The notes under the pieces are model-generated. The model searched no databases. It had not been told where the DNA came from and saw nothing but the letters and a program-made list of their open reading frames with translations. This document shows, piece by piece, positions 10,969 to 32,305 of a stretch of 38,030 nucleotides of DNA. Source of the DNA: a virus (taxonomy: Duplodnaviria > Caudoviricetes); the IMG/VR virus record IMGVR_UViG_3300020045_002115, positions 1 through 38,030 of that record. One strand, 5' to 3'. The position numbers and the translations under genes are program-made. Position 1 is the stretch's first letter; every line of letters starts with the position of its first letter.

Positions 10969-11189
10969 GTGGCTTCAAATATTTTAAGCGAAAGTTCGCA
11001 TACAACAACATTATCTTCGTAATACGGCTTTATGCTAATTCCCCTATAAGTTTCAATGCTTTGCATATTTAATTCATCTTGGAAATGCCTCATTACATTT
11101 TTGCCAATAAGAAAAGCGGATATAGTAAACTTATTATCACGTTCAACATCGGCAATCTGCTCGTCTATACTTTGTCTTACATAACTCAT
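10965..11189 (-). CDS. Hypothetical protein
   Basis: 74 aa, coupled at both ends. Confidence 0.6.
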   Translation of the reverse strand: MSYVRQSIDEQIADVERDNKFTISAFLIGKNVMRHFQDELNMQSIETYRGISIKPYYEDNVVVCELSLKIFEAT

Positions 11190-11875
11190 TGTTCGTATTT
11201 ACTTTTATCGGGGTACAATCCACTCATTAACATTTCCATTCCGTGACCTAATGCTTTATCGGAGATACTGAAAAACTTCGCCTCTTTTAAAAGGTCAAGA
11301 TATTCGTAACGAAATTTCTTCTCGAATAGTTTGTAATCTTTTGAGGCTTCGAACGGAACAGAGTTCATATTCCCGTACATGGATTTGAGGAGCGTCTTTC
11401 CAAAGGGTACGTTATACTTAGATTTCTCAATCGTAAAAGGGGCGTGAATGTTGTAGCTCATCAATGGTAATCCTAATGCCTTTAATTGCTTTTGCGTTTC
11501 AAGCAAAAGAGATTGATATTGTCTGTTCCCTTTCATTCTTACAATATGTTCCGATAAAGTTCCCGTTGAGAAATAAGGAAACTCGTCAGCATCAAAATCT
11601 GATAAAAGAAAGTGGTCATCGTACACACAAAGGAACTTGTCACTTATAGCGGTGTGGCTAACTGCGAACTGCGTCTTCTTAATCACGTTCAGAACTTTGT
11701 CATTCACTTCTTTGTATTCGATGTGATGAACATTCTGAAGGAACGAAGGGCAATGACCGATGATAAAAACCTTGCCGATGTTCTTTAAGTACTTCTGCAT
11801 TGAACGCAAAGAATACCTCAGCTCGTTATCTTTCCATCCCGAACGGATGCCTACTATGTAAACGAGGTCGGTCAT
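11186..11875 (-). CDS. Stealth-like sugar-phosphotransferase/glycosyltransferase
   Basis: DLVY, ELRYSLRS (Stealth CR2-like) and YDD motifs; start MTDLVY overlaps upstream stop (ORF track start 11902). Confidence 0.7.
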   Translation of the reverse strand: MTDLVYIVGIRSGWKDNELRYSLRSMQKYLKNIGKVFIIGHCPSFLQNVHHIEYKEVNDKVLNVIKKTQFAVSHTAISDKFLCVYDDHFLLSDFDADEFPYFSTGTLSEHIVRMKGNRQYQSLLLETQKQLKALGLPLMSYNIHAPFTIEKSKYNVPFGKTLLKSMYGNMNSVPFEASKDYKLFEKKFRYEYLDLLKEAKFFSISDKALGHGMEMLMSGLYPDKSKYEQ

Positions 11876-12567
11876 ATCTCCCTGCTTTTCTTTGTTGACC
11901 AATGGCGAATCATCGCGCTGCCTGCGTCAATGACTACCTTATTAAATTTCCTTGCCGCTTCGACAATCAGGTATTTACCGGAAGCCCCTACCGAGCAAAG
12001 TATCAGGTTTGCTTTCATGCCTCCGATAAACTTTAAAGCTGCTCCGTAATCTTCCCACGAATCGTAATCTGCGTACTCCATTCTGACGATTGAGTATTTA
12101 TCACATAGTCCGTTCGCTACCTTTTGAGAATCCCTACAAACTACCCCTACTCCTCCGGTGTGCTGAAGCAATTTAGGAACCCGTCCCATATACAGCCATT
12201 CGTGACAGATGATACCTGAGCCATAAAAAGCCCTTGCATTTACGTGAGGTATTATCTCGTAACGGTCAAGCATCAGCCCTGAGATGTTGGGGCAAAATAT
12301 ATCCGCTTCATTCGCTGCTTTGATAACGCTTGTCTGAACCTTTTTAAAGTCGGCTCCGACAAGACCGTATTCTTTCAGCCATACTTTATCCGTCAGATAT
12401 CTTTTATTCACTCCGAGAATTATCGAACGCTCCCCGTCCCCCATCCTGACAAGCGACAAAGGTTTGCGCATCAGCAAAGCATTTGATACGAGGATGAATA
12501 TAGCATCCCCCGACATATACTTTTTTGCCGTAGCAACTTTTTCAGCTTCGTATATCTGAAGGTTCAT
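11872..12567 (-). CDS. GT-D fold glycosyltransferase-like protein
   Basis: SLVRMGDGE and VIDAGS motifs of GT-D/DUF1792-like proteins; likely start MNLQIY (ORF track start 12654). Confidence 0.7.
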   Translation of the reverse strand: MNLQIYEAEKVATAKKYMSGDAIFILVSNALLMRKPLSLVRMGDGERSIILGVNKRYLTDKVWLKEYGLVGADFKKVQTSVIKAANEADIFCPNISGLMLDRYEIIPHVNARAFYGSGIICHEWLYMGRVPKLLQHTGGVGVVCRDSQKVANGLCDKYSIVRMEYADYDSWEDYGAALKFIGGMKANLILCSVGASGKYLIVEAARKFNKVVIDAGSAMIRHWSTKKSREI

Positions 12568-13144
12568 TTTGAAGTGCGTTATATTCGTCCATATCAACTT
12601 CTCCGTGTCCGTACTGCCAGCGTTTCTTATTCTCTGCCTGATTCCAATTCTCATAAACCAACGGAACTTTTCTTTTCTTTATCAGCGTGATATTTGAATC
12701 CAGATGATTGAAGGATATTGCCTCTACTTCGAGAAAACAATGCTGTAAAAGCCCACAGAGAAAAACTATATTCTTCGCCCTGCGTGTGTCATGAAAAGCA
12801 AACAACCCGCCTGGTTTCAAATACTTCCAATGTTCAATAGCGAACGTCCCCCGTAGATTCATAAGCCCGTCATCAAAGATAAAATCATATTCTCCTTCGG
12901 GTTTAAAATCTTCCAGCGAAGAAAACCTTACATCTTTCTTTATCTCCAAAAACTCAAGGTTCTTTTGTGTCCTGCGAATCCATTCTTTCTCGGTATCGAT
13001 GCTGGTTAGTTCGCCTTCGGTGTAAGCCGCCAATACCTGTGTGCTTGCTCCGCTTCCGAACTCCAATATCCGTTCGTGCTGCTCTGCCATTTCTTTAAGG
13101 ACTACTGCATCCTGTTTTGATATATCGCCTATGTAAACTATCAT
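12542..13144 (-). CDS. Class I SAM-dependent methyltransferase (small-molecule/sugar type)
   Basis: ILEFGSGAST, YDFIFDDG, LKPGGLFAFHD motifs. Confidence 0.85.
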   Translation of the reverse strand: MIVYIGDISKQDAVVLKEMAEQHERILEFGSGASTQVLAAYTEGELTSIDTEKEWIRRTQKNLEFLEIKKDVRFSSLEDFKPEGEYDFIFDDGLMNLRGTFAIEHWKYLKPGGLFAFHDTRRAKNIVFLCGLLQHCFLEVEAISFNHLDSNITLIKKRKVPLVYENWNQAENKKRWQYGHGEVDMDEYNALQNEPSDIRS

Positions 13145-19267: not shown

Positions 19268-20251
19268 TTAAATTTCTAATTGTAGTTGGCTGTTTGTCTT
19301 AAATCGGGTTTTGGCGGTTTCGAGATTTAAGATTGCCTGTTTGTAATAGCTGTCTTTTAATTCAATGCCGATTGCTTTTCGTCCCATTGAAACCGGGCTG
19401 TAAACTTCTGAACCAACGCCCATGAATGGAGTAAATACTAATTCATTCGGATTGCTGTAAAGTTCAACCAACCTGTCAATCACATCAAGCTGCAAAGGAT
19501 GTACGTGCTTTTCGTCATCTTCATCACGGCTTTCTTTGAAGGGTAAAACATTGTCAATTCGGATATCATCCCAAACGCTTGAGGCGTAACGCTGCCAAAT
19601 CAAATGGCTCATCTTATTCTCTTTTGGGTCGCCTTCAAAATTCTGCCATTTCTTTTTGAAGTCTGCATAGTTGCCGTAGGTTTCTATGTGGGCCGGAAGA
19701 AAAGGCGTTTCGCCAAAGTAATCATTCAGTCCAAAAGGATGGGTTACCGGTATTTCGTTTTCACCTGAACGGGTAAAGATTAAAACATAATCGGGCATGG
19801 CCGTAAAGCATCGGGTTGTATCTTCAACAATGAATTTGTGCATTAAACTTTGCACCATTGTTCTCATGCGAACTTTCAGCGGCTCTTTCCAAATCGTTAT
19901 ACGGTTACGATAATGAAAACCGTTTGCCTCATGGAGTTTAATTATCTCATGCGGAAAGTCCCAAAGAAAACTTTTGTTATCGTGAATGTCTGTACAATGA
20001 ACTGCATTAATCCTTCCAGGCTTAGTTACCCTTGCCATTTCGCCAATCAGGAAACCATACTGCTGCAAAAATTGCTCTTTGCTTTCACAGTTTGAAAAAT
20101 CATTTTCGCTTGAACTGTAATTGTACAACCCCGCAAATGGAGGGCTGTAAATTGATAGGTGAACACTTTTGTCCGGTAATGTCGGAAGCACATACATACA
20201 ATCTGAATTGTATAGCGCGAAATCTTCGGTAATGAGTTGCTCTTTTATCAT
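19268..20251 (-). CDS. DNA amino-methyltransferase (N4-C/N6-A, beta class)
   Basis: SPPF catalytic motif precedes PFMGVGS SAM-binding motif; GIELK. Confidence 0.9.
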   Translation of the reverse strand: MIKEQLITEDFALYNSDCMYVLPTLPDKSVHLSIYSPPFAGLYNYSSSENDFSNCESKEQFLQQYGFLIGEMARVTKPGRINAVHCTDIHDNKSFLWDFPHEIIKLHEANGFHYRNRITIWKEPLKVRMRTMVQSLMHKFIVEDTTRCFTAMPDYVLIFTRSGENEIPVTHPFGLNDYFGETPFLPAHIETYGNYADFKKKWQNFEGDPKENKMSHLIWQRYASSVWDDIRIDNVLPFKESRDEDDEKHVHPLQLDVIDRLVELYSNPNELVFTPFMGVGSEVYSPVSMGRKAIGIELKDSYYKQAILNLETAKTRFKTNSQLQLEI

Positions 20252-21621
20252 ACGAATTTAGGTAGTTTGACTTTTTTGTTGAACTCTTTTTTTACTATTT
20301 TGAAATCTGAATTTGTTTGTGCGCTGAGATTTTCAAACATCTCAATTGCTTTCTCTTTTTTTATCATAAGACTTTCCATGATTCGGGTTTGCCCATCGGA
20401 TAAAATCAAATCTACAATCACTTCTCTTTTCTGCCCGAACCTCCAAAACCTTCTTATTGCCTGATAGTATTGCTCGTAAGAATACGTAGGGAAATAGGTA
20501 GTATGATTGCAATGCTGCCAATTCAAACCAAAGGCGGTTATTGAAGTTTTGGTTATTAGTTTTTTTATTTCGCCTTTTGAAAATGAAAGTAAAATTTCTT
20601 CTTTCTCGTCAATATCCATTTTACCTTTTACCTCAACTGCGGTTTTGTCAAGCTGTGATATCAAAGCGGCCTCATCGTTCAGGTTCACCCAATACACAGA
20701 AATATCATGTTCGTTTGCCTTGCCTACGGCGGCTTCGCACCGTTCATGTATAGTCGCCCTTACTTCAGCTTTTATTTCAAAGAAGTTAGTTGCAGGAAAA
20801 TTGAACATTGAATATTGCCCGTTCAATGTTAGGGGGCTTTTATTGTTTACTATGGTTTCATATTCTTTCAGCTCGGGCAAAATGAATTTAGTATCATCAA
20901 AGCCCAAATCACTTGGCTTTCTCATTGATATGCTCCATGAAGAAATCCATTGCCAAAAAGATTTTTCAGCATGGCCTTTCAAATACCATTCTTCCCCTGC
21001 CCGGTGTTGGCCGCTTGCTTTTATTGTATTGTTATTATTTTTAAAAAACTTCGTAAGCATATCCGTATATCCCAAATATCCCAATGCCTCCGATGAAGTT
21101 CCTAATTCTACATAATCATTGGGGGATGGGGTTGCGGTAAAGAGATATCGATATTTTACTTTCCGCAAGAAATTAGTTATGGCTTGTTTCGTTGCGCCCT
21201 CAAAGTTTTTTAAGATAGAACTTTCATCTAATAAAACACAATCGAAATCATGTGAGTTAAAATGTTCCAATCGTTCGTAGTTGCAAATTACAATCTTTGT
21301 TTTATATTTCCCGTCTTTGGAATAGGAAACATCATCTATGTTAAATTTCTCGGCCTCTTTGATAAATTGAAAGGCAACCGCCAAAGGGCAAATAATTAAT
21401 ACAGGTTTGTTGGTATGCCGTATGTAGTTGGTGGCAGTAACTAATTCAATTAACGTCTTGCCTAATCCGGTGTCTAAGAAATCAGCGCACCGCCCTTTTC
21501 GGATTGTTTTTTCTGCTACGTATTTTTGAAAATCAAAAAGCGAATTGGGAATAAATGTCGGCTCTATTCCGTAATCGGATTGAGAGTGCCTTTTACTTTC
21601 TAAGAAACTTTGATAATCCAT
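20248..21621 (-). CDS. SNF2-like SF2 helicase
   Basis: DTGLGKT, LDESS, TATP, FGLNWQ, QAIRRFWRFGQ. Confidence 0.9.
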   Translation of the reverse strand: MDYQSFLESKRHSQSDYGIEPTFIPNSLFDFQKYVAEKTIRKGRCADFLDTGLGKTLIELVTATNYIRHTNKPVLIICPLAVAFQFIKEAEKFNIDDVSYSKDGKYKTKIVICNYERLEHFNSHDFDCVLLDESSILKNFEGATKQAITNFLRKVKYRYLFTATPSPNDYVELGTSSEALGYLGYTDMLTKFFKNNNNTIKASGQHRAGEEWYLKGHAEKSFWQWISSWSISMRKPSDLGFDDTKFILPELKEYETIVNNKSPLTLNGQYSMFNFPATNFFEIKAEVRATIHERCEAAVGKANEHDISVYWVNLNDEAALISQLDKTAVEVKGKMDIDEKEEILLSFSKGEIKKLITKTSITAFGLNWQHCNHTTYFPTYSYEQYYQAIRRFWRFGQKREVIVDLILSDGQTRIMESLMIKKEKAIEMFENLSAQTNSDFKIVKKEFNKKVKLPKFV

Positions 21622-21627
21622 AATAAC

Positions 21628-21737
21628 AAACCCTTACCAGCACAAAGGTTCGTCCGTCCTGCGCGAAGGCAGATTGGGCAATGTACCGATAAGGGGTTTC
21701 TTTTGGGTTTTCATAACGGACGAACGGGACAAAGATA
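21628..21737 (-). promoter_or_regulatory. Promoter (TATCTTTG) plus structured leader upstream of helicase
   Basis: -7 box at 21730-21737; complementary 21648-21657/21716-21725; stem 21628-21644/21682-21699. Confidence 0.6.
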
Positions 21738-21829
21738 ATATTTATTTCAATAACCTAATTTTATTTTTAATTCCCTTTCAGTAAATCGCTTCTTTGCTCC
21801 GTTGGGCTTGAAAGGTCGTAGTTCGGGGG

Positions 21830-22162
21830 TCATTTGGTTAATGAATTAAATTTGTTTTCAAAATCTTCATACGAATCTCTCACTTCAAAGGCAATGCCCC
21901 CTGCCGTATTCACATCCTCCAGGAACATAGTCTGAAAGATTGAAAGTTTATCCCTGCCCGTTTTCACTTCGATTGCAAGGAACTTCCCATCTGACTTTCT
22001 GAATCCGATAATATCGGGAATGCCGAGTTTGTGAGTTGGATTTTTCATAAAGGCATCCCGCTTCTTTGAATACACGGCTCCGTTGTTTTGCCTCCATGCC
22101 TTGAATCCGTTGTAGTTCAGAAACCGGATAATGCTTTGCGTTAATTGATTCGTTGCGCTCAT
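21830..22162 (-). CDS. VRR-NUC domain nuclease
   Basis: GIPDI...AIEVK...LS..Q..F PD-(D/E)xK pattern. Confidence 0.85.
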   Translation of the reverse strand: MSATNQLTQSIIRFLNYNGFKAWRQNNGAVYSKKRDAFMKNPTHKLGIPDIIGFRKSDGKFLAIEVKTGRDKLSIFQTMFLEDVNTAGGIAFEVRDSYEDFENKFNSLTK

Positions 22163-22272
22163 TTCCTTTTCTTCCTACTTGGTGCCAAACTTTTCATCTT
22201 CTGCCTTTGCCGCTCTTTTACCTCCTCACAAAATATTTTTAAGGCTATCTCCTTTTTATTGGGGCGGGTCAT
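22159..22272 (-). CDS. Small basic hypothetical protein (37 aa)
   Basis: MTRPNKKEIALK...; ATGA-coupled at both ends; below ORF-track cutoff. Confidence 0.45.
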   Translation of the reverse strand: MTRPNKKEIALKIFCEEVKERQRQKMKSLAPSRKKRK

Positions 22273-23105
22273 TGAAATAAATGTTGGTTCTCTGTAAAAC
22301 TTCTTTCGCACCCTACGCACATCGGTTGAAATAAATCAAGTTCTAATTGTTTCGGGTTCTTTTTCTTTGGCATTTTTTCTCCCCAGCCGAAACCAAATTT
22401 TTGTTTCACTATTTTTTCAAGTCCGTCAATCCATGCGCCCCATTTCGGAAATAAAACACTTGCCTCTATTCGCTCGACCTTGCTTTGCATTGTTCCGCAC
22501 AGACATTCTCCGCTTCTACATATTGCAAGTGATACGGGATTGCGCTTTACTCCGTTGCCATCAAGATACGAAATACATTCGGGCTTATCCCATTCGTTGA
22601 TAACATTTACCCAAATATTATTTCCGTTTTTCTCTACCTTAATCGGATTGACAAATTCCTTCATTCTGTTTTCAGATTCAAGCCGCCTGCCTCCGTTGAC
22701 GAATAGTATTTTTCTGCCCCGTTTATTTTGGCGAATGTTTTTAGAAGTGCATTTCCTAAAATGTTCCGCTTTCAAAACATGATAGGAGAAATTGTGAGCA
22801 TCCCTACCTACTCCAAAGAATCCCTTCCGCATAATGTACCGTTCGTAAGCGTCCCCTGCGTCGGCTTCAATGTAAATAGGCTTTTCATTTGCAGTTGTTG
22901 CCCGAACAAAGTCAAGGGTTTCCTGTATTCCCGTTCCCGTTATGCCGTGCATGATGTGGGTTAAGGGAACGCCCAACTCTTTGCAAACCGCCAACGCTGT
23001 CATTGAATCATCGCCACCCGAAAGCATCAGGACAACAGCATAGGGATTGTATTCAGCTATTGCCCTATCAATAATCTCCTTGCTCGATAATAATTTCTCG
23101 TTCAC
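22269..23105 (-). CDS. PAPS reductase-family (PP-loop) protein
   Basis: LSGGDDS PP-loop, GxRxxESxxR, RSGECLCG. Confidence 0.85.
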   Translation of the reverse strand: MNEKLLSSKEIIDRAIAEYNPYAVVLMLSGGDDSMTALAVCKELGVPLTHIMHGITGTGIQETLDFVRATTANEKPIYIEADAGDAYERYIMRKGFFGVGRDAHNFSYHVLKAEHFRKCTSKNIRQNKRGRKILFVNGGRRLESENRMKEFVNPIKVEKNGNNIWVNVINEWDKPECISYLDGNGVKRNPVSLAICRSGECLCGTMQSKVERIEASVLFPKWGAWIDGLEKIVKQKFGFGWGEKMPKKKNPKQLELDLFQPMCVGCERSFTENQHLFQ

Positions 23106-26236: not shown

Positions 26237-26557
26237 TCATAAGTTTTGAGCATTTTTTTCAACAATCCCCCTGTTCGCCTTTTGCTGGTCGGGGGTCATA
26301 AACCAAATTTTATGGTCGCGGTTCCATTCGTCCGATATAAGCACCCCTGCCTGCTTTAAATCCAACAAGCGCCTGGGCAATGAGTTTATGCCATGCTCCA
26401 CTATTGCATCGCGTACCGTTAATCTATTGCCCCCCATAAGCAGATTAAATACCTTCAGACATTGTTTGTTGAACTTGTGGCGGTTCTCATTTAAGTTTGT
26501 AAGGCTTTCTCTATTATTTTCAGCTTCGTGAACGGTAAAGAGGTCGGGTTGGCTCAT
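26237..26557 (-). CDS. Winged HTH DNA-binding protein
   Basis: LTVRDAIVEHGINSLPRRLLDLK pattern. Confidence 0.65.
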   Translation of the reverse strand: MSQPDLFTVHEAENNRESLTNLNENRHKFNKQCLKVFNLLMGGNRLTVRDAIVEHGINSLPRRLLDLKQAGVLISDEWNRDHKIWFMTPDQQKANRGIVEKNAQNL

Positions 26558-27384
26558 CTTAATGGAGATTTAACGCCCCGTAAATAGGTCGGGGAGTGGA
26601 TTAAATAATGCTTCTCAATCGTTCGGGTTGAGGCATGGCCAACCTTTGTAGCGACTACTGAAATCGGCACTTCGTTTTCAACTGACCATGTAATAGTGAA
26701 TCTTCGGATAGCATGAACGCCCAAATATTTTACTCCGACAATTCCGCAATATCTTTTAATGGTTTCGCGGATGCTTTCAGATGTATATGGGTGGCCGGCT
26801 TTCCATCCTTCAAAAAGGTAGCGGGTTGGTTTTTCTTTCTGTGAGTTCCAATACAAAGAGATTAACTTCCAAACTCCTTCCGATGGATAAATTACCCTAT
26901 CTTGATTTCCTTTAGCAGAGCGCAAAATAATACTCGCCTCTTTAGAGTTGCAATCAGAAAGGAGGATTGAACACGGCTCCGATATTCTTAATCCGCAGTC
27001 AATGATCAGCGCAAGTATAGCTTTCTGTTTTGCATTTTTAATAGCATTGAGAACTTTTAAAATATCCTGTTCTAAATAAACCGATTGAACTTTCTTGGTG
27101 CGCTTCGGATATGGAAGCTGCCGCCAATCAATGTTCCGGTCGTAAACCGTTGAAAATAGCCAGCGAATAATTATACAAATGTTTCGCCTGGTATTGTCAT
27201 TCTTAAACTCCGCTGCGAAATCCTGTAATTCTAAAATTGTCGCATCCTTTGGTTCGGGAAATCTTTTAAGGATTAAATTAAGGTTTGCCCTGTAAACCGG
27301 ATAAGTATTTTCTAAGCTATATCCCTTTAAGCGGATGTAATTGAAAAGCATTTTGTCACAATACTCGGCAGTAGTCAATTTCAT
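26554..27384 (-). CDS. Tyrosine recombinase, candidate cassette integrase
   Basis: GLRISE (R), AKG (K), HAIR (HxxR), VGH (H), KHY (Y); SAM-like N-domain; C-terminal KSPL; no IntI-type insertion visible. Confidence 0.9.
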   Translation of the reverse strand: MKLTTAEYCDKMLFNYIRLKGYSLENTYPVYRANLNLILKRFPEPKDATILELQDFAAEFKNDNTRRNICIIIRWLFSTVYDRNIDWRQLPYPKRTKKVQSVYLEQDILKVLNAIKNAKQKAILALIIDCGLRISEPCSILLSDCNSKEASIILRSAKGNQDRVIYPSEGVWKLISLYWNSQKEKPTRYLFEGWKAGHPYTSESIRETIKRYCGIVGVKYLGVHAIRRFTITWSVENEVPISVVATKVGHASTRTIEKHYLIHSPTYLRGVKSPLR

Positions 27385-27394
27385 AATCGTTTGA

Positions 27395-27429
27395 TTTTTA
27401 GAATAGGTTCATTAGTACCACCGTTATAA
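27395..27429 (+). other. attI-like primary recombination site (core GTTATAA at 27423-27429)
   Basis: GTT core 39 bp upstream of integrase start; GTTATAAAA is complementary to TTTTATAAC at 27524-27532; not preceded by an attC arm; left limit uncertain. Confidence 0.6.
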
Positions 27430-27725
27430 AACAGCTTGCTCATAACGGATTACATCTATTGCAGTTTCTACCCATGTGTGGTGCTTCTATAACATCATCG
27501 CTCCCACAAACATCGCAAACCGATTTTATAACATCAGGTTGGACAAAATTTTTATTTGCTTCCCTTAGTGCTTTAATTTCAGCGTTCATCTTCGTAATTT
27601 GTCTCTGTAAAGGCTTTATTGCATTTTCAACATACATTTCTACACTCTGGTCTTGTAACATATTTTATCTATTTTAAGTTATCGTTTTCAAATCCGCAAA
27701 TAAAAACTTCGCCAACCTGCGGACG
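27424..27725 (+). mobile_element. Gene cassette 1 (302 bp)
   Basis: Bounded by G|TT cores at 27423 and 27725; ends in attC-like site 1. Confidence 0.7.
27440..27661 (-). CDS. Small coiled-coil plus CxxC...CxxC protein (cassette 1)
   Basis: 73 aa; starts in the attC1 loop and reads through its arm (NKNFVQPDVIK). Confidence 0.7.
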   Translation of the reverse strand: MLQDQSVEMYVENAIKPLQRQITKMNAEIKALREANKNFVQPDVIKSVCDVCGSDDVIEAPHMGRNCNRCNPL

Positions 27726-27731
27726 TTATAT
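27526..27731 (+). repeat. attC-like site 1 (206 bp)
   Basis: TTATAAC-AT-CAGGTTGG...TTTTTATTTGC / GCAAATAAAAA...CCAACCTG-CGGAC-GTTATAT. Confidence 0.75.
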
Positions 27732-28647
27732 GAAATGCGCCTTGTTTCATAGTGAGCTTTCTGCTTCATTCTCTTTTTTAATAAAATTATTTTTTTCTTC
27801 CTCCCCTAAAAAAGAAAACAAATTTGGTTGCGTAGATTTTTCTACTCTGATTATTCCTCTTGCCATATCCAATATCAACAAACCAAGTTCAGGAAATACG
27901 CAGTTCCGCAACACTTGTCTTTTGTTCGGTATTTTTATTTCGCTCAAATCAAATCCGTGTAACGACATCAGTTCCGGTATTTGAGCTTCACGGATAATTC
28001 TCTTTCGTGTTCCGTGCATCAGCGTTCCTATCTGCACTCCATAATCTTTTTTCGGTATAGTAAAATTTGACCAGAAGTAATGCCTTCCGCTTTCTTGTGG
28101 CTTTATCAATGGTTCGTAATAACTAATCACATTCTCCACTACATATTTTCCTTTAAACCATTCTTGCAGCAAAATTATTTCCTGATATAATTTCATATCG
28201 GGATATTTTACCGCCCATCTTCCGCCATTTGAGTAATTGATTTTGCTATGTGTCGGGCAAGGCGGTGAACTCCAAATGAAATCAAACTCCTGATAATGTT
28301 CTAACAGGTATTGGTGAGCATCGCCAACAATAACTTTATCATCAGGAAAAAATTTCTGATACACTCCTGCAATATCGGGATTGAACTCAACGGCTGTTAC
28401 TTCAACATCAGTCCACAGTTTTCTGTTGCCTCCAATTCCGCAGTATAGATTTAAAACTTTCATTTGTTCCAAATGATAAAAGGTTTGCCCACGCTCAAAA
28501 AAATAATTTTATTAAAAAAGGTTTCTCGTTTCATAGTTAGTTTTGTGGAAGCGCACTTCATATAACACCGGCTTTAATGCAATTTTGTTTTTGAGTTTTC
28601 TATTTTTTGAATTTGGTAAAAACAAAACTGACATAAAGCCGTAACCG
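27726..28647 (+). mobile_element. Gene cassette 2 (922 bp), C5-MTase
   Basis: GTTATATGAAATGCGC (27725-27740) is complementary at 15/16 positions to GCGCACTTCATATAAC (28551-28566). Confidence 0.8.
27747..28463 (-). CDS. DNA cytosine-5 methyltransferase-like (short phage type)
   Basis: LNLYCGIGG, SSPPC, VVENV motifs; likely start MKVLNLY (ORF track start 28472). Confidence 0.85.
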   Translation of the reverse strand: MKVLNLYCGIGGNRKLWTDVEVTAVEFNPDIAGVYQKFFPDDKVIVGDAHQYLLEHYQEFDFIWSSPPCPTHSKINYSNGGRWAVKYPDMKLYQEIILLQEWFKGKYVVENVISYYEPLIKPQESGRHYFWSNFTIPKKDYGVQIGTLMHGTRKRIIREAQIPELMSLHGFDLSEIKIPNKRQVLRNCVFPELGLLILDMARGIIRVEKSTQPNLFSFLGEEEKNNFIKKENEAESSL

Positions 28648-28653
28648 TTACAA
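28560..28653 (+). repeat. attC-like site 2 (94 bp)
   Basis: ATATAAC-AC-CGGCTTTA...TTTTGTTTT / AAAACAAAA...TAAAGCCG-TAACC-GTTACAA. Confidence 0.8.
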
Positions 28654-29499
28654 GCAATGCTACATTCGTTTTCATATTGAGCTTTTCGTTTCAACTTTTA
28701 ATAATTTTTTTCCCTCCTTTAAAAAAGAAAGTAATTGTTCACCTACAAATTTCGTGTAAGCCGGTGGAATACTTTGCGCAAGTTCATATTGCCCCAACCA
28801 ATTCAATCCGGTCATTTCGCCAACCTCTTTCACACCGGAGAAATGCCCAACATATTGTATAAATTCTTCCGGCTTTGCTCTCCTACCCATCTTTGCATTT
28901 TTGGCTATATGCTTTGGATGCTCCGGCACTTGTATTTCAAAATTGCTTTCAAACAATCTGTGCCTGTAAGTCCGTAAGCCAAACATTGCACCGCACAATT
29001 CAACCGGATTTATTAACGGGCTTCCCGGCACATTCTCAATTACAAACGGCTTTCTTGTTTTAAGCAATTCAACTCTTGTTGCCTCAATCAAGTCCGGGTA
29101 AATTTTGCCGTTAATCCTAAATTGCATTGATGCCATTGAATATCCTTGACAGGGCGGTGATGCGTGTATTGCATCGTATAAGTGCCAATTCTCTTTCAGG
29201 TATTCAATAGCATCTGCCTGTATAAATTTACCCCTGTATTTTGGTTGTGGCTCAATGTCAATTCCGGTTACATCAAATCCGGCTTGCTCATATCCAAAAC
29301 TTGCACCACCGGCACAGCAGTATAAATCAAGTAACTTAAAATGCCCTCGCTCAAAAAAATTATTAAAAGTTGTTTCGTTTTCCATATCAATATTTCTACT
29401 TAATTAACCGCACTGCTTGTAACACGGGCTTTAATTCAATTTGCTTTTTTCTTGTTTATTTTTTAGGGGCAAAAAGCAAACTAAATAAAGCCCCAACCG
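28648..29499 (+). mobile_element. Gene cassette 3 (852 bp), C5-MTase
   Basis: GTTACAAGCAATGC (28647-28660) is complementary at 13/14 positions to GCACTGCTTGTAAC (29410-29423). Confidence 0.8.
28672..29385 (-). CDS. DNA cytosine-5 methyltransferase-like (short phage type)
   Basis: LDLYCCAGG, ASPPCQ, VIENV, RHRLFE, SIPPAY. Confidence 0.85.
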   Translation of the reverse strand: MENETTFNNFFERGHFKLLDLYCCAGGASFGYEQAGFDVTGIDIEPQPKYRGKFIQADAIEYLKENWHLYDAIHASPPCQGYSMASMQFRINGKIYPDLIEATRVELLKTRKPFVIENVPGSPLINPVELCGAMFGLRTYRHRLFESNFEIQVPEHPKHIAKNAKMGRRAKPEEFIQYVGHFSGVKEVGEMTGLNWLGQYELAQSIPPAYTKFVGEQLLSFLKEGKKLLKVETKSSI

Positions 29500-29505
29500 T
29501 TAGGA
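29417..29505 (+). repeat. attC-like site 3 (89 bp)
   Basis: TTGTAAC-AC-GGGCTTTA...TTTGCTTTTT / AAAAAGCAAA...TAAAGCCC-CAACC-GTTAGGA. Confidence 0.8.
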
Positions 29506-29625: not shown

Positions 29626-30368
29626 TTTATTTCAATCAACAACTTGCCGGCTTCGATGATACGCGAAGTTAAAAAATCTTTGTCTTTTTCGGGAATCTCA
29701 AAACGGTAAATATTCAGATTCTTATAATGCTTATTCCCATCTGGCAAGTACGCGAGTTTTGATTTGTGGGATTCGTAAATGAATCTATATTCATGTGGGT
29801 TGTCGCCATCATAATTGTATGCCTCATTTGAAATATCCTCAAGTTCGCTTTCGTATGGCATATAAAGGATGGCCTCCATTAAATTAAAGCCCCATATACA
29901 GGCGTTAGAAACAAGCTGCCAATATTCTTTAGCGTAAGATTTTTTCCATTCCGAAAGGTCGCCAGTTTCTTTTGCCTTTATTAGAACGTCATTATATTCT
30001 GCAAAGTTTTGTGGCTCATAACATTTCGTATCAGCGACAACCCCGTCCTGTTTACAAACATTGTCCTGGCTCCCCGCCCAAATGTCGCCATGAACCGGAT
30101 GAAGCATTGTGACATTGCTCAATAGTTCGTATGAAGTAGGGAGTAGATCGTGAACCCGTTGCTCTAAGAACTGTCCCCACTTAGTTGACCTGTTGCCAGC
30201 ATCAAGCGATAGCGACCTCCCCAACTTGCGCTCAAGATTCTTTTCGTGAACGTAGGAATAAAAGGGTGCGCCATACGTTCCTGCGACCTTTCCGTTTGTG
30301 GTTAGCCTGAAATTCTCCGATGAAGTGAAGCGCCCATTTCTTTCGGTATTATTTAAAATACCGTTCAT
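29622..30368 (-). CDS. YqaJ/lambda-exonuclease-like recombination nuclease
   Basis: R.GRFTSSE, WGQFLE, AGSQD, DTKC, YWQ motifs; follows SSAP gene. Confidence 0.75.
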   Translation of the reverse strand: MNGILNNTERNGRFTSSENFRLTTNGKVAGTYGAPFYSYVHEKNLERKLGRSLSLDAGNRSTKWGQFLEQRVHDLLPTSYELLSNVTMLHPVHGDIWAGSQDNVCKQDGVVADTKCYEPQNFAEYNDVLIKAKETGDLSEWKKSYAKEYWQLVSNACIWGFNLMEAILYMPYESELEDISNEAYNYDGDNPHEYRFIYESHKSKLAYLPDGNKHYKNLNIYRFEIPEKDKDFLTSRIIEAGKLLIEIK

Positions 30369-31027
30369 TTTGCCATTAGGGATTTATGAAGTTTTCGGAA
30401 AGACTTGGTTTCATTGCCGTTCAGGATGCGTTCAGCGTCCGTTATTTCGGCAGGGGTGAGAGATTCCTTCTTTAGTTCAAAGAGCGTTTGTAGCTCATCT
30501 TTGTCAATCGTAGCCCCATTCAGGTCAACATTAATCTCCCTGAAATCCTCTTTATTGTAAATGTCGGCAGCTATGCCTATTTCGGAGGCGCATTTTTTCA
30601 GACAATCGGTTGCTGCGGCCTTCAGGTCGTTGCCGATTGACAAAGGTACTTTCGGGGCGTTCGCGGCCTTTTCGGCATCGGTTTGTTTCCGGTAAATAAT
30701 ATCCTTATTCCCGAATTGCATTTTAATAATTTCCTTCCCTCCACTTCGACAAGTCAGGCGACCTTTTACTATGGCCTCATCATGCAGGATAATCTGCTCC
30801 ACAATTTCAAATGACCAGTCCCATCCGAACATAAGGTTAAGGCACTTCTTTACGTAGCCCCCGGTAACGTAGTCCCATTTGCCGCCTCCCTTTGCCGGGC
30901 GTTGTTTAACATATTGTTCAGGAGTTTTCTTTAAAAGGCGCTCAAGCTGAAATTTATTGAGAGCGTTGTTTTCAACCAGGGAAAGTTCTTCGGGTTGAAT
31001 TAATGCGAGTTCATTCTTAGTTTCCAT
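30365..31027 (-). CDS. Rad52/22-family single-strand annealing protein (Sak-like)
   Basis: LNLMFGWDWSFEI, LKAAATDCLKKCASEIGIAADIY. Confidence 0.85.
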   Translation of the reverse strand: METKNELALIQPEELSLVENNALNKFQLERLLKKTPEQYVKQRPAKGGGKWDYVTGGYVKKCLNLMFGWDWSFEIVEQIILHDEAIVKGRLTCRSGGKEIIKMQFGNKDIIYRKQTDAEKAANAPKVPLSIGNDLKAAATDCLKKCASEIGIAADIYNKEDFREINVDLNGATIDKDELQTLFELKKESLTPAEITDAERILNGNETKSFRKLHKSLMAK

Positions 31028-31290: not shown

Positions 31291-31599
31291 TTAAATTGTT
31301 TGTAATTGAAAATTCTTTATTAACTCAATTCCTCTTTCAAGGTGTGATTGAAACTCACTTTCGGTTGATGCTCTGTAATTGGAGTTTGTGAAAAACGAAC
31401 CTACGTTGGTGTCAATAGTAGATACACTTACTCCGCCCGTTTCGTTTATCCAGCACTTACAGACGGTGTTTTCGTCAATAATTTTAACGACCTCTTTGAA
31501 GTAGCCCTCATCGTTGCCCGTTACTCTGTAAGCTGGCAATGTGATTTCCCTTTCAACTACTTCAGGGGATACGGGTACTGTGATTGTAATGGTTTTCAT
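31291..31599 (-). CDS. Hypothetical protein
   Basis: 102 aa, A-rich leader. Confidence 0.65.
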   Translation of the reverse strand: MKTITITVPVSPEVVEREITLPAYRVTGNDEGYFKEVVKIIDENTVCKCWINETGGVSVSTIDTNVGSFFTNSNYRASTESEFQSHLERGIELIKNFQLQTI

Positions 31600-31621
31600 T
31601 TTATTTTAGATTAAACTGTGA

Positions 31622-31741
31622 ATAAAAAACCTCAGTCCCAACGAGTGCATTACGTTCGCGATTCCGGTGAAGGCGGGGACTGAGGCAAGAAGTTTAATTT
31701 GATTCACCGGAACTTTATTTTGTAATGCGAAGGCAAAGATA
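31622..31741 (-). promoter_or_regulatory. Promoter (TATCTTTG) plus structured attenuator-like leader
   Basis: -7 box at 31734-31741; stem 31630-31639/31676-31685 followed by U-tract; loop complementary to 31703-31712 and 31722-31728. Confidence 0.65.
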
Positions 31742-31938
31742 ACTAACTTAATTGAATAACAAACTAATTGTAAATAATCATTGAGAGGGCGGTTACAGAA
31801 ATCTGATATGAGCAATTGCCCCGCCTTGCGTACTTCAGCCGGAACCATGACTTAGTACAAAATGCGCCTCCGAAATAACCCTGGTTGTCGAACTTGCGGC
31901 AAAGTAGCTGGCTCTTAATGGATGGGGAGAGTTTCATT

Positions 31939-32208
31939 TTATATATTTGATTCAAATAAGTGCCATACTAAAGCCCCGCCCATCTGCTGGAAAGTACCTA
32001 TGTATTTATAGTCTATCAGTTCAAATGGGTTGCCAGTTCCCTGTATGCAGAAGGTTCGTATTTCCTTTGGCGCTTCTGGGTTTACGATTGCCCATATAGT
32101 ACCTACCGCGCTTTGATTTTGCACCGTAAGTATTTCTGCGCCTTTAGGCATTTCAATATGAAACACATCGTCAATAGCAAATGTAAATTTCCAAATTGTT
32201 TTTTTCAT
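31939..32208 (-). CDS. Conserved small phage protein
   Basis: MKKTIWKF...MPKGAEILTVQ...GTG...YIGTFQ...VWHLFE pattern recalled from many phages. Confidence 0.75.
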   Translation of the reverse strand: MKKTIWKFTFAIDDVFHIEMPKGAEILTVQNQSAVGTIWAIVNPEAPKEIRTFCIQGTGNPFELIDYKYIGTFQQMGGALVWHLFESNI

Positions 32209-32305
32209 TTCACTCGCACATTAGTAAATATATATATTGTTTCCGCTATCAATGCTAAAAGGCAAAAGCCGAATAATAGTAAAAGCGTTATGAAGTTTTT
32301 GCGGG

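What the first reader, a model, noticed from the sequence alone, without database searches (positions are those of the whole stretch)
27741..29390. Nested scaffold inside cassettes 2 and 3: perfect inner inverted repeats and shared motifs enclosing the payload
Seen: cassette 2 has a perfect 23-bp IR (27774-27796 / 28497-28519) and cassette 3 a perfect 20-bp IR (28692-28711 / 29353-29372). The two IRs differ but are each self-complementary. Just inside them both cassettes share CCTCCYYTAAAAAAGAAA on the left and TGCCCWCGCTC on the right. Outside they share GTTT(T)CATAKTGAGCTTT, which supplies the same stop (ESSL* / KSSI*). The MTase cores between are clearly divergent. Inference: a standard blank cassette into which different genes were loaded, possibly the footprint of a second capture mechanism. 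How integron cassettes are created is an open question.
Basis: partly seen in the sequence, partly recalled or inferred. Interest (0 to 1): 0.85.

Follow-up and report, generated by a model that had tools for sequence, protein, structure and literature searches.

The report
Reusable frames inside phage gene cassettes
Each of the two methyltransferase genes in this phage sits in a mobile, integron-like cassette whose ends carry a matched inverted repeat and a short G-rich word; the same kind of frame surrounds unrelated genes in many Bacteroidota phages, so cassettes are likely reloaded with new genes at that word, a lead on the open question of how cassettes are made.

Summary
In detail: perfect inverted repeats of 24 and 20 bp (100 shuffles reached at most 15), each bordered inside by a G-rich 9-mer (consensus RAGCGWKGG) in direct orientation. 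This is not paralogous duplication. I found 40 distinct framed cassettes, one in the cultured Polaribacter phage P12002L. Near-identical frames hold unrelated cargo (Mom, N6- and C5-methyltransferases, Tet/JBP, radical SAM, promoter-bearing multi-gene blocks). Identity between such pairs ends within 14 nt of the 3' motif end in 22 of 24 comparisons, and at the 5' motif or start codon. Independent assemblies carry cassette 3's arms with other cargo. Cassette 3 moves at GTT sites. Its genes are antisense to the classical integron direction, and the adjacent recombinase is XerA-like without the IntI insertion. Best reading: a selected closing stem that extends attC, plus reloading of existing cassettes at the G-rich word (0.5). 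A dedicated capture enzyme is not excluded (0.25). Not found in eight literature searches.

The parts
26554..27384 (-). Tyrosine recombinase, XerA-like, no IntI insertion; reads away from the array, the position intI has in integrons
   Evidence: PF00589; NF040815 110 bits vs cut-off 220, TIGR02249 38 vs 265; collinear with XerA 4A8E
27423..27429 (+). First GTT crossover site (attI-like), about 40 nt from the recombinase start
   Evidence: sequence; one contig of run X3 stops matching at 27422
27424..27725 (+). Cassette 1: 73-aa ORF (27440-27661, minus strand) and a degenerate attC (27653-27731); no frame
27725..27743 (+). Cassette 2 R' box and outer stem arm (pairs with 28549-28566)
27744..27772 (.). 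Cassette 2 unpaired linker, holds the stop codon of the methyltransferase
27773..27796 (.). Cassette 2 inner arm, 24 bp, perfect complement of 28497-28520
27797..27817 (-). G-rich word and preceding T-run at the 3' end of the cargo, translated as part of the methyltransferase tail
27747..28463 (-). Short C5 cytosine methyltransferase 2; native end (QPNLF) extended by a frame-encoded tail
28486..28496 (-). G-rich word at the 5' end of the cargo of cassette 2
28497..28520 (.). Cassette 2 inner arm (partner)
28521..28566 (.). Cassette 2 linker, outer stem arm and R'' box
28560..28653 (+). attC-like site of cassette 2
   Evidence: fold -16.2 kcal/mol, z -1.9, 8 of 200 shuffles as good; related sites 5' of the homologous gene in L109/L112
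28647..28691 (.). Cassette 3 R' box, outer stem arm and linker with the stop codon
   Evidence: homology of independent contigs ends at 28646-28647
28692..28711 (.). Cassette 3 inner arm, 20 bp, perfect complement of 29353-29372
28712..28730 (-). G-rich word and T-run at the 3' end of the cargo of cassette 3
   Evidence: contigs with this arm diverge at 28711 and 28717
28672..29385 (-). Short C5 cytosine methyltransferase 3; start codon and first residues come from the frame
29342..29352 (-). G-rich word at the 5' end of the cargo of cassette 3
   Evidence: a contig with this arm diverges at 29353
29353..29372 (.). Cassette 3 inner arm (partner)
29373..29423 (.). Cassette 3 linker, outer stem arm and R'' box
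29417..29505 (+). attC-like site of cassette 3; travels with the cassette
   Evidence: homology of independent contigs ends at 29502-29504
30365..31027 (-). Rad52-like annealase (Sak) close to the array; candidate helper for reloading (inference only)
   Evidence: PF04098

Best explanation
The repeats and G-rich words form a frame that recurs around unrelated genes in integron-like cassettes of Bacteroidota phages; the inner repeat is likely a selected second stem that closes the cassette's two ends in single-stranded DNA, and existing cassettes are likely reloaded with new genes by relaxed recombination at or next to the G-rich word. SHOWN: cassette 3 is found with other flanks that begin at its GTT sites; the attC 5' of the gene travels with it, so the genes are antisense to the classical direction; each frame has R box, outer stem, a 30-40 nt linker, a perfect arm and the G-rich word on both sides; near-identical frames hold unrelated cargo; breakpoints cluster at the word or the start codon. 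PREDICTED: in the excised circle the recombining strand folds into a rod of about 230 nt, more stable than the same attC in the array. INFERRED: this favours excision or re-integration, so the stem is kept by cassette-level selection; donor DNA (phage genes or small promoter-gene blocks) enters where it has a match to the G-rich word plus an A-run, by annealing or template switching at the base of the stem, possibly helped by a phage annealase. No blank frame is needed.
For: Frame reuse: 40 distinct framed cassettes; 21 of 38 cargo proteins scanned hit Pfam, in ten families; frame identity with unrelated cargo 100/100% (L373, L380), 99/93% (L332, L381; L088, L217), 97/97% (L047, L064). Breakpoints: 22 of 24 right-hand comparisons within 14 nt of the motif end; 16 of 29 left-hand ones within 17 nt of the motif start and 11 at 32-36 nt, the start codon of one frame family (pairs share members and are not independent). 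Cassette 3's own arms with other cargo in runs X5, X6, X7. The right motif lies in different reading frames and homology to frameless homologues runs up to or into it. Stem selection: 26 of 79 attC-bounded cassettes have a perfect inner repeat of 12 bp or more, against 4 of 600 cross pairs; four methyltransferase cassettes without the frame have 13-14 bp perfect stems inside conserved coding ends, 38-54 nt from the R box; arms occur T-rich or A-rich first yet stay self-matched. Fold: -54 kcal/mol for the circle junctions against -36 and -34 in the array. Mobility and polarity.
Against: About half of the cassettes have no inner stem (40 of 79 at 8 bp or less), and a chimeric cassette with unmatched ends persists in P12002S, so the stem is not required. 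The core GnGnnG(G) is kept on both sides, more than generic annealing predicts. No donor locus at high DNA identity was found, so a capture event is not seen directly. In the window's two cassettes and L035 the right motif comes with a shared T-run, so there it belongs to the frame, not the donor. The fold comparison is a prediction and favours any longer stem. The locus sample was collected by motif scans and is biased.
Confidence: 0.5

Rival explanations
1. A dedicated capture system: an unidentified nickase or second recombinase cuts at the G-rich word on folded single strands and swaps the cargo loop between a frame (possibly blank) and donor DNA with a degenerate match.
For: The word is kept at both borders in 23 of 27 cassettes found by their outer ends alone, with a near-invariant core. 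L109 and L111/L112 carry the window's methyltransferase 2 (90% and 63% identity) with the same R box but the two G-rich words swapped and the perfect 32-bp repeat on the cargo side, as if the word were a two-fold symmetric joint. The same word flanks hairpins next to dif-like sites in metagenomic loci.
Against: No blank frame in three IMG/VR scans (93, 44 and 82 hits) or in 564 stored sequences. Breakpoints are spread, and 11 of 29 left ones are at the start codon, about 25 nt past the word. No candidate enzyme was identified; a complete 93-kb phage with framed cassettes has no PF00589 match.
Confidence: 0.25
2. The mobile unit is an attC-carrying miniature element (arm-linker-attC-linker-arm) that inserts at G-rich targets; two insertions around a gene, followed by recombination between the attC sites, make a cassette.
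For: Would explain private perfect repeats, similar but unequal words at the two ends, truncated cargo, and the lack of blanks. It parallels the group IIC-attC intron model (PMC7923331, passages).
Against: No single insertion with matched arms across an attC was found among the stored loci; shared sequence often runs past the word to the start codon; coding-embedded stems are not explained.
Confidence: 0.08
3. Cassettes are made through an RNA copy of the gene, and the frame is the primer or acceptor.
For: Cargo often starts at the start codon and ends near the stop.
Against: Several cargoes include upstream non-coding DNA of 80-140 nt and two to four genes; the genes are antisense to the classical direction; no reverse transcriptase among the 30 window proteins scanned.
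Confidence: 0.05
4. The two cassettes descend from one duplicated methyltransferase cassette, and the repeats are incidental.
For: Both cargoes are short C5 methyltransferases.
Against: Frames hold many unrelated families. Among 95 homologue loci only L109 and L111/L112 showed a framed copy of the gene, in permuted form. The arms of the two cassettes differ, yet each is perfect.
Confidence: 0.02

Closest known systems
Integron gene cassettes and attC sites, including phage CALINs (Qi et al. 2023, PMC9892861; read: section 3.4, passages, supplement rows)
   Same: RYYYAAC...GTTRRRY hairpin sites between cassettes, crossover at GTT, methyltransferase cargo. That paper lists a CALIN with two methyltransferases in Polaribacter phage P12002L, where I found one full frame at 31310-32227.
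   Different: The passages I saw do not mention an inner stem or G-rich word ('inverted repeat' occurs twice in the text; the passage shown concerns attC boxes). Here the genes are antisense, the recombinase lacks the IntI insertion, and the cassette ends pair 50-75 nt inward.
Integron integrase IntI versus simple Xer-like tyrosine recombinases (PMC8138268, passages)
   Same: Two-domain tyrosine recombinase beside the first crossover site, reading away from the array.
   Different: No catalytic-domain insertion, which that paper calls essential for integron function; aligns collinearly with archaeal XerA.
Group IIC-attC intron model of cassette formation (described in PMC7923331, passages)
   Same: A proposed route that joins an attC to an arbitrary gene.
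   Different: No intron or reverse transcriptase seen here; the footprint is a DNA stem and a G-rich word.
MITEs and composite transposons (recalled)
   Same: Perfect terminal inverted repeats of 14-24 bp reused around different cargo, with a short direct repeat beside them.
   Different: The direct repeat lies inside the arms, the unit moves at GTT sites, and no free element or transposase was found.
Chi and KOPS polar octamers (recalled)
   Same: G-rich, same-strand word at recombination borders.
   Different: Only 1.4-2.4-fold over a reversed control in five genomes and no replichore polarity in one complete chromosome.

Membership tests
Integron gene cassette | attC with R''/R' boxes in a foldable imperfect palindrome | tested here: met
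   28560-28653 and 29417-29505; the fold z-score is modest (-1.9)
Integron gene cassette | Unit moves with crossover at G|TT and carries its attC | tested here: met
   homology ends at 28646-28647 and 29502-29504 in runs X1, X3, X8; 5 of 6 informative pairs share the attC 5' of the gene
Integron gene cassette | Gene reads towards its own attC (usual, not universal) | tested here: not met
   genes are on the minus strand and read away from their attC
Integron gene cassette | Recombination on the folded bottom strand | not testable with these tools
   needs a strand-specific assay; shown for one other P12002L site in PMC9892861
Integron (IntI platform) | IntI-specific insertion in the catalytic domain | tested here: not met
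   no insertion against XerA; TIGR02249 38 bits vs 265
Integron (IntI platform) | Recombinase gene beside attI, divergent from the array's top strand | tested here: met
   26554-27384 (-) next to the GTT at 27423; related recombinases also lie next to framed cassettes in L356, L392, L403
Integron (IntI platform) | Pc promoter driving the cassette genes | not tested
   genes are antisense, so a Pc in the usual place would not drive them (inference)
MITE / composite transposon | Free single elements with target duplication outside the terminal repeats | tested here: not met
   none among stored loci
Chi / KOPS motif | Strong over-representation and replichore polarity in the host chromosome | tested here: not met
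   the true host is unknown, and polarity was tested in one Pedobacter chromosome only
Known structured RNA (Rfam) | Match at gathering score | tested here: not met
   3 weak matches, all far below cut-off

The most novel reading that the evidence does not exclude
The G-rich word is the recognition site of an undescribed gene-capture reaction that cuts ordinary phage genes at degenerate matches and ties them into a pre-folded cassette frame: a DNA-based route of integron cassette genesis, readable from its scars and testable in cultured Polaribacter and Flavobacterium phages.
Probability: 0.3. Interest if true: 0.92.

Novelty: new variant of a known kind. Interest (0 to 1): 0.7.

Why it matters
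How genes come to be packaged with an attC site is listed as an open question in the integron field (PMC8618304, conclusion passage). These frames give defined junctions, many natural examples and a cultured phage-host pair, so loading can be tested directly. They also point to an integron-like system in Bacteroidota phages that uses a Xer-like recombinase and antisense cassettes to trade DNA-modification genes (methyltransferases, Mom, Tet/JBP), which likely shapes escape from host restriction. If the inner stem raises recombination, it adds a level of att-site structure beyond the attC hairpin.

Tried and rejected
Blank frames: hairpin with one word (93 hits; best stem 9 bp); outer layer with a 28-58 nt gap (44 hits, all chance; a blank with both linkers would be longer than this gap, and only the local scan of 564 sequences, covered that); two words with a short tip (82 hits, none framed). 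Free attC-in-hairpin elements: none. Chi/KOPS idea: not supported. Strict frame pattern in 401 Bacteroidota genomes: 0; not found in those searched, not shown absent. The genome-contig scan gave mostly chance hits. Recombinase relatives in IMG/VR by pattern: none confirmed, although 82 close proteins exist. Donor search for an HTH-bearing cargo in GenBank phages and for cassette 3 in plasmids: no match. Rfam: nothing. No RNA holder listed. Low-complexity loose ends in runs X2, X3 and X8 near the A/T arms were disregarded. Rows dropped before the count of 40 (from 51 rows): strand mirrors, duplicates, the two permuted cassettes, and cassettes whose stem has no G-rich word. Supplements of bioRxiv preprints were not seen; papers outside the open library were not searched.

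Full report
Setting. The window is a 38-kb phage record with portal, terminase, Clp protease, helicase and Rad52-like genes. A tyrosine recombinase (26554-27384, minus) is followed by three cassettes bounded by AAC...GTT hairpins. The host is inferred to be Bacteroidota, because the same sites and frames occur in Polaribacter and Flavobacterium phages.

Observation. The repeats are real: 24 bp (27773-27796 / 28497-28520) and 20 bp (28692-28711 / 29353-29372). The longest in each of 100 local shuffles was 12-15 bp. The shared motifs and the frame-supplied stops are as described. The two C5 methyltransferases are 32% identical.

Anatomy and polarity. On the coding strand each cassette reads: R box, outer stem, linker of 30-40 nt, perfect arm, G-rich word, cargo, G-rich word, arm, linker, outer stem, R box. 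The attC 5' of the gene was the better conserved flank in 5 of 6 informative pairs. Contigs from independent runs match cassette 3 at about 95-97% and stop matching at 28646-28647 and 29502-29504, the two GTT sites. So the plus strand is the classical top strand, the genes are antisense, and the recombinase stands where intI stands. It is not an IntI: it aligns with XerA without the insertion and scores 38 bits against a cut-off of 265. Related recombinases lie next to framed cassettes in three other loci. Three of five records searched, one a complete 93-kb phage, have none.

Reuse of the frame. The window's left motif found 15 IMG/VR loci; 11 had a self-matched arm of 12-19 bp. Further scans gave 51 catalogue rows and, after removing mirrors, duplicates, permuted and word-less cases, 40 distinct framed cassettes including the window's two. 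In the scan that used only the outer end, 27 distinct cassettes had both outer ends, 23 had both words, and 16 of these 23 had perfect arms of 15 bp or more; the own partner was best or tied in 15 of 23, the rest being decayed arms or families that share arms. Arms can be T-rich or A-rich first. Of 38 cargo proteins scanned, 21 hit Pfam: N6/N4 and C5 methyltransferases, Mom, Tet/JBP, FkbM, PAPS reductase, radical SAM, YopX, NUMOD4 and SpoU. Several cargoes are blocks of two to four genes with 80-140 nt of upstream non-coding DNA. One full frame is in cultured Polaribacter phage P12002L at 31310-32227. Among 95 loci with homologues of the window's methyltransferases (43 read by eye, all passed through the scans), only L109 and L111/L112 had a framed copy. 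Most of the 120 best protein homologues of methyltransferase 2 end without a frame-like tail.

Junctions. The word has the consensus RAGCGWKGG on both sides, on the same strand, with a core GnGnnG(G); the mean match is 8.5 of 9 on the left and 7.6 on the right, while 9 of 2318 cargo windows reach 8 (the left figure is inflated by the search). For pairs with similar frames and dissimilar cargo DNA, identity ends within 14 nt of the right word's end in 22 of 24 comparisons. On the left it ends within 17 nt of the word's start in 16 of 29 and at 32-36 nt, the start codon of one family, in 11 (pairs are not independent, and some are distant methyltransferase paralogues). The last ORF often runs through the right word into the arm, in different frames (KRVEE, KRWE, KALEE, CALGK, LSVGK, ERGE), and homology with frameless relatives reaches the word. 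So the right word looks partly donor-made in those cases. In the window's two cassettes it comes with a shared T-run and looks frame-made. In runs X5, X6 and X7, contigs carry cassette 3's arms and then turn, at 28711, 29353 and 28717, into a variant word and other sequence. L109 holds methyltransferase 2 (90% identity) with the same R box but swapped words and a 32-bp arm on the cargo side.

What weakens the blank-cassette reading. No blank was found in three collection scans or in local scans, and no free attC-carrying hairpin. Among 79 attC-bounded cassettes in my loci, 26 have an inner perfect repeat of 12 bp or more (cross pairs: 4 of 600), while 40 have 8 bp or less. Four N6/N4 methyltransferase cassettes without the frame have perfect 13-14 bp stems inside conserved coding ends, 38-54 nt from the R box, and a fifth cassette (L380) has a 16-bp one overlapping its ORF. 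A capture scar does not explain these; selection for end-pairing at a set distance does. In the modelled excised circles the coding strand folds into one long rod (-54 kcal/mol, against -36 and -34 in the array, a prediction). A chimeric cassette with unmatched ends exists in P12002S, so the stem helps but is not required.

Mechanism. I commit to a selected closing stem plus reloading of existing cassettes by relaxed, word-biased recombination at the base of the stem (0.5). Frame reuse, breakpoints, mobility and polarity are shown; the effect of the stem on recombination and the loading chemistry are inferred. A Rad52-like annealase lies about 860 bp from the array, which is only a neighbourhood argument. 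A dedicated enzyme acting at the word remains open (0.25); the swapped-word cassettes and the conserved core speak for it. An attC-delivering miniature element (0.08), an RNA route (0.05) and simple duplication (0.02) fit worse. The idea that the word is a host Chi or KOPS site found no support.

Literature. Eight searches returned no title or abstract opening that describes such a frame. Qi et al. 2023 (PMC9892861; section 3.4, passages and supplement rows) report CALINs with methyltransferases in P12002L and IntI1 activity of one attC there; I saw no mention of inner stems. PMC8618304 (passages) names cassette formation as an outstanding question. PMC8138268 (passages) gives the IntI insertion as essential. 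PMC7923331 (passages) summarises the group IIC-attC intron model. PMC8352920 (one passage) mentions cassette genesis without a mechanism. Subscription papers and preprint supplements were not visible. Earlier notes of this scan report the same frame in other genomes; they are unchecked AI notes, seen late, and are not counted as support.

Verdict. Real, widespread in Bacteroidota phages, apparently undescribed in the literature searched. It works like an integron cassette but the platform fails the IntI test. New variant of a known kind; interest 0.7. The boldest reading, a new DNA-based route of cassette genesis, has probability about 0.3.

Noticed in passing
L109:2937-3692 (also L111, L112, L223, L266): Same methyltransferase as window cassette 2 with the same R box, but the two G-rich words are swapped and a perfect 32-bp repeat lies between words and gene. 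L109 and L112 share the frame although their proteins are 63% identical.
   Followed up: partly
L060, L077, L088, L216, L217; L109:1980-2590: Frame and cargo sit inside the loop of an attC-like site instead of between two sites.
   Followed up: partly
L208, L212, L213, L218, L227, L246, L251, L269, L274 (about 2250-2530): A widespread element with an inverted pair of dif-like sites and neighbouring hairpins, each flanked by the same G-rich word; no cargo in the loops. Possibly a Xer-related mobile region of Flavobacteria.
   Followed up: partly
L362, L369, L006 (673-bp cassette), L702 (Flavobacterium phage mumin6-1): Perfect 13-14 bp inverted repeats inside conserved N- and C-terminal coding sequence of N6/N4 methyltransferases, at the depth of the frame arms.
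   Followed up: yes
L699 and L700 (P12002L gp36, P12002S gp38): Related methyltransferase with the same 3' cassette end but a different 5' end: a chimeric cassette with unmatched arms.
   Followed up: partly
window 30578-30596 and 31859-31877: A third perfect inverted repeat (19 bp, 33 bp at 82%), one arm inside the Rad52-like gene; above the shuffle maximum of 15; unexplained.
   Followed up: no
L003:1821-3664: One frame carries a three-gene DNA-modification block: small protein, Tet/JBP oxygenase, FkbM methyltransferase.
   Followed up: partly
L001:2007-3665: A framed C5 methyltransferase ORF with a long internal insertion that overlaps a second ORF resembling a GIY-YIG endonuclease (by eye, not scanned).
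   Followed up: no
window 11186-13144 and 19268-23105: Stealth CR2, GT-D and methyltransferase-domain genes among the late genes; an N6/N4 methyltransferase, SNF2-type helicase and PAPS-reductase gene outside the array.
   Followed up: no
L119-L121, L123, L192-L194: Homologues of both window methyltransferases sit in GC-rich attC-bounded cassettes of other hosts, without the frame.
   Followed up: no
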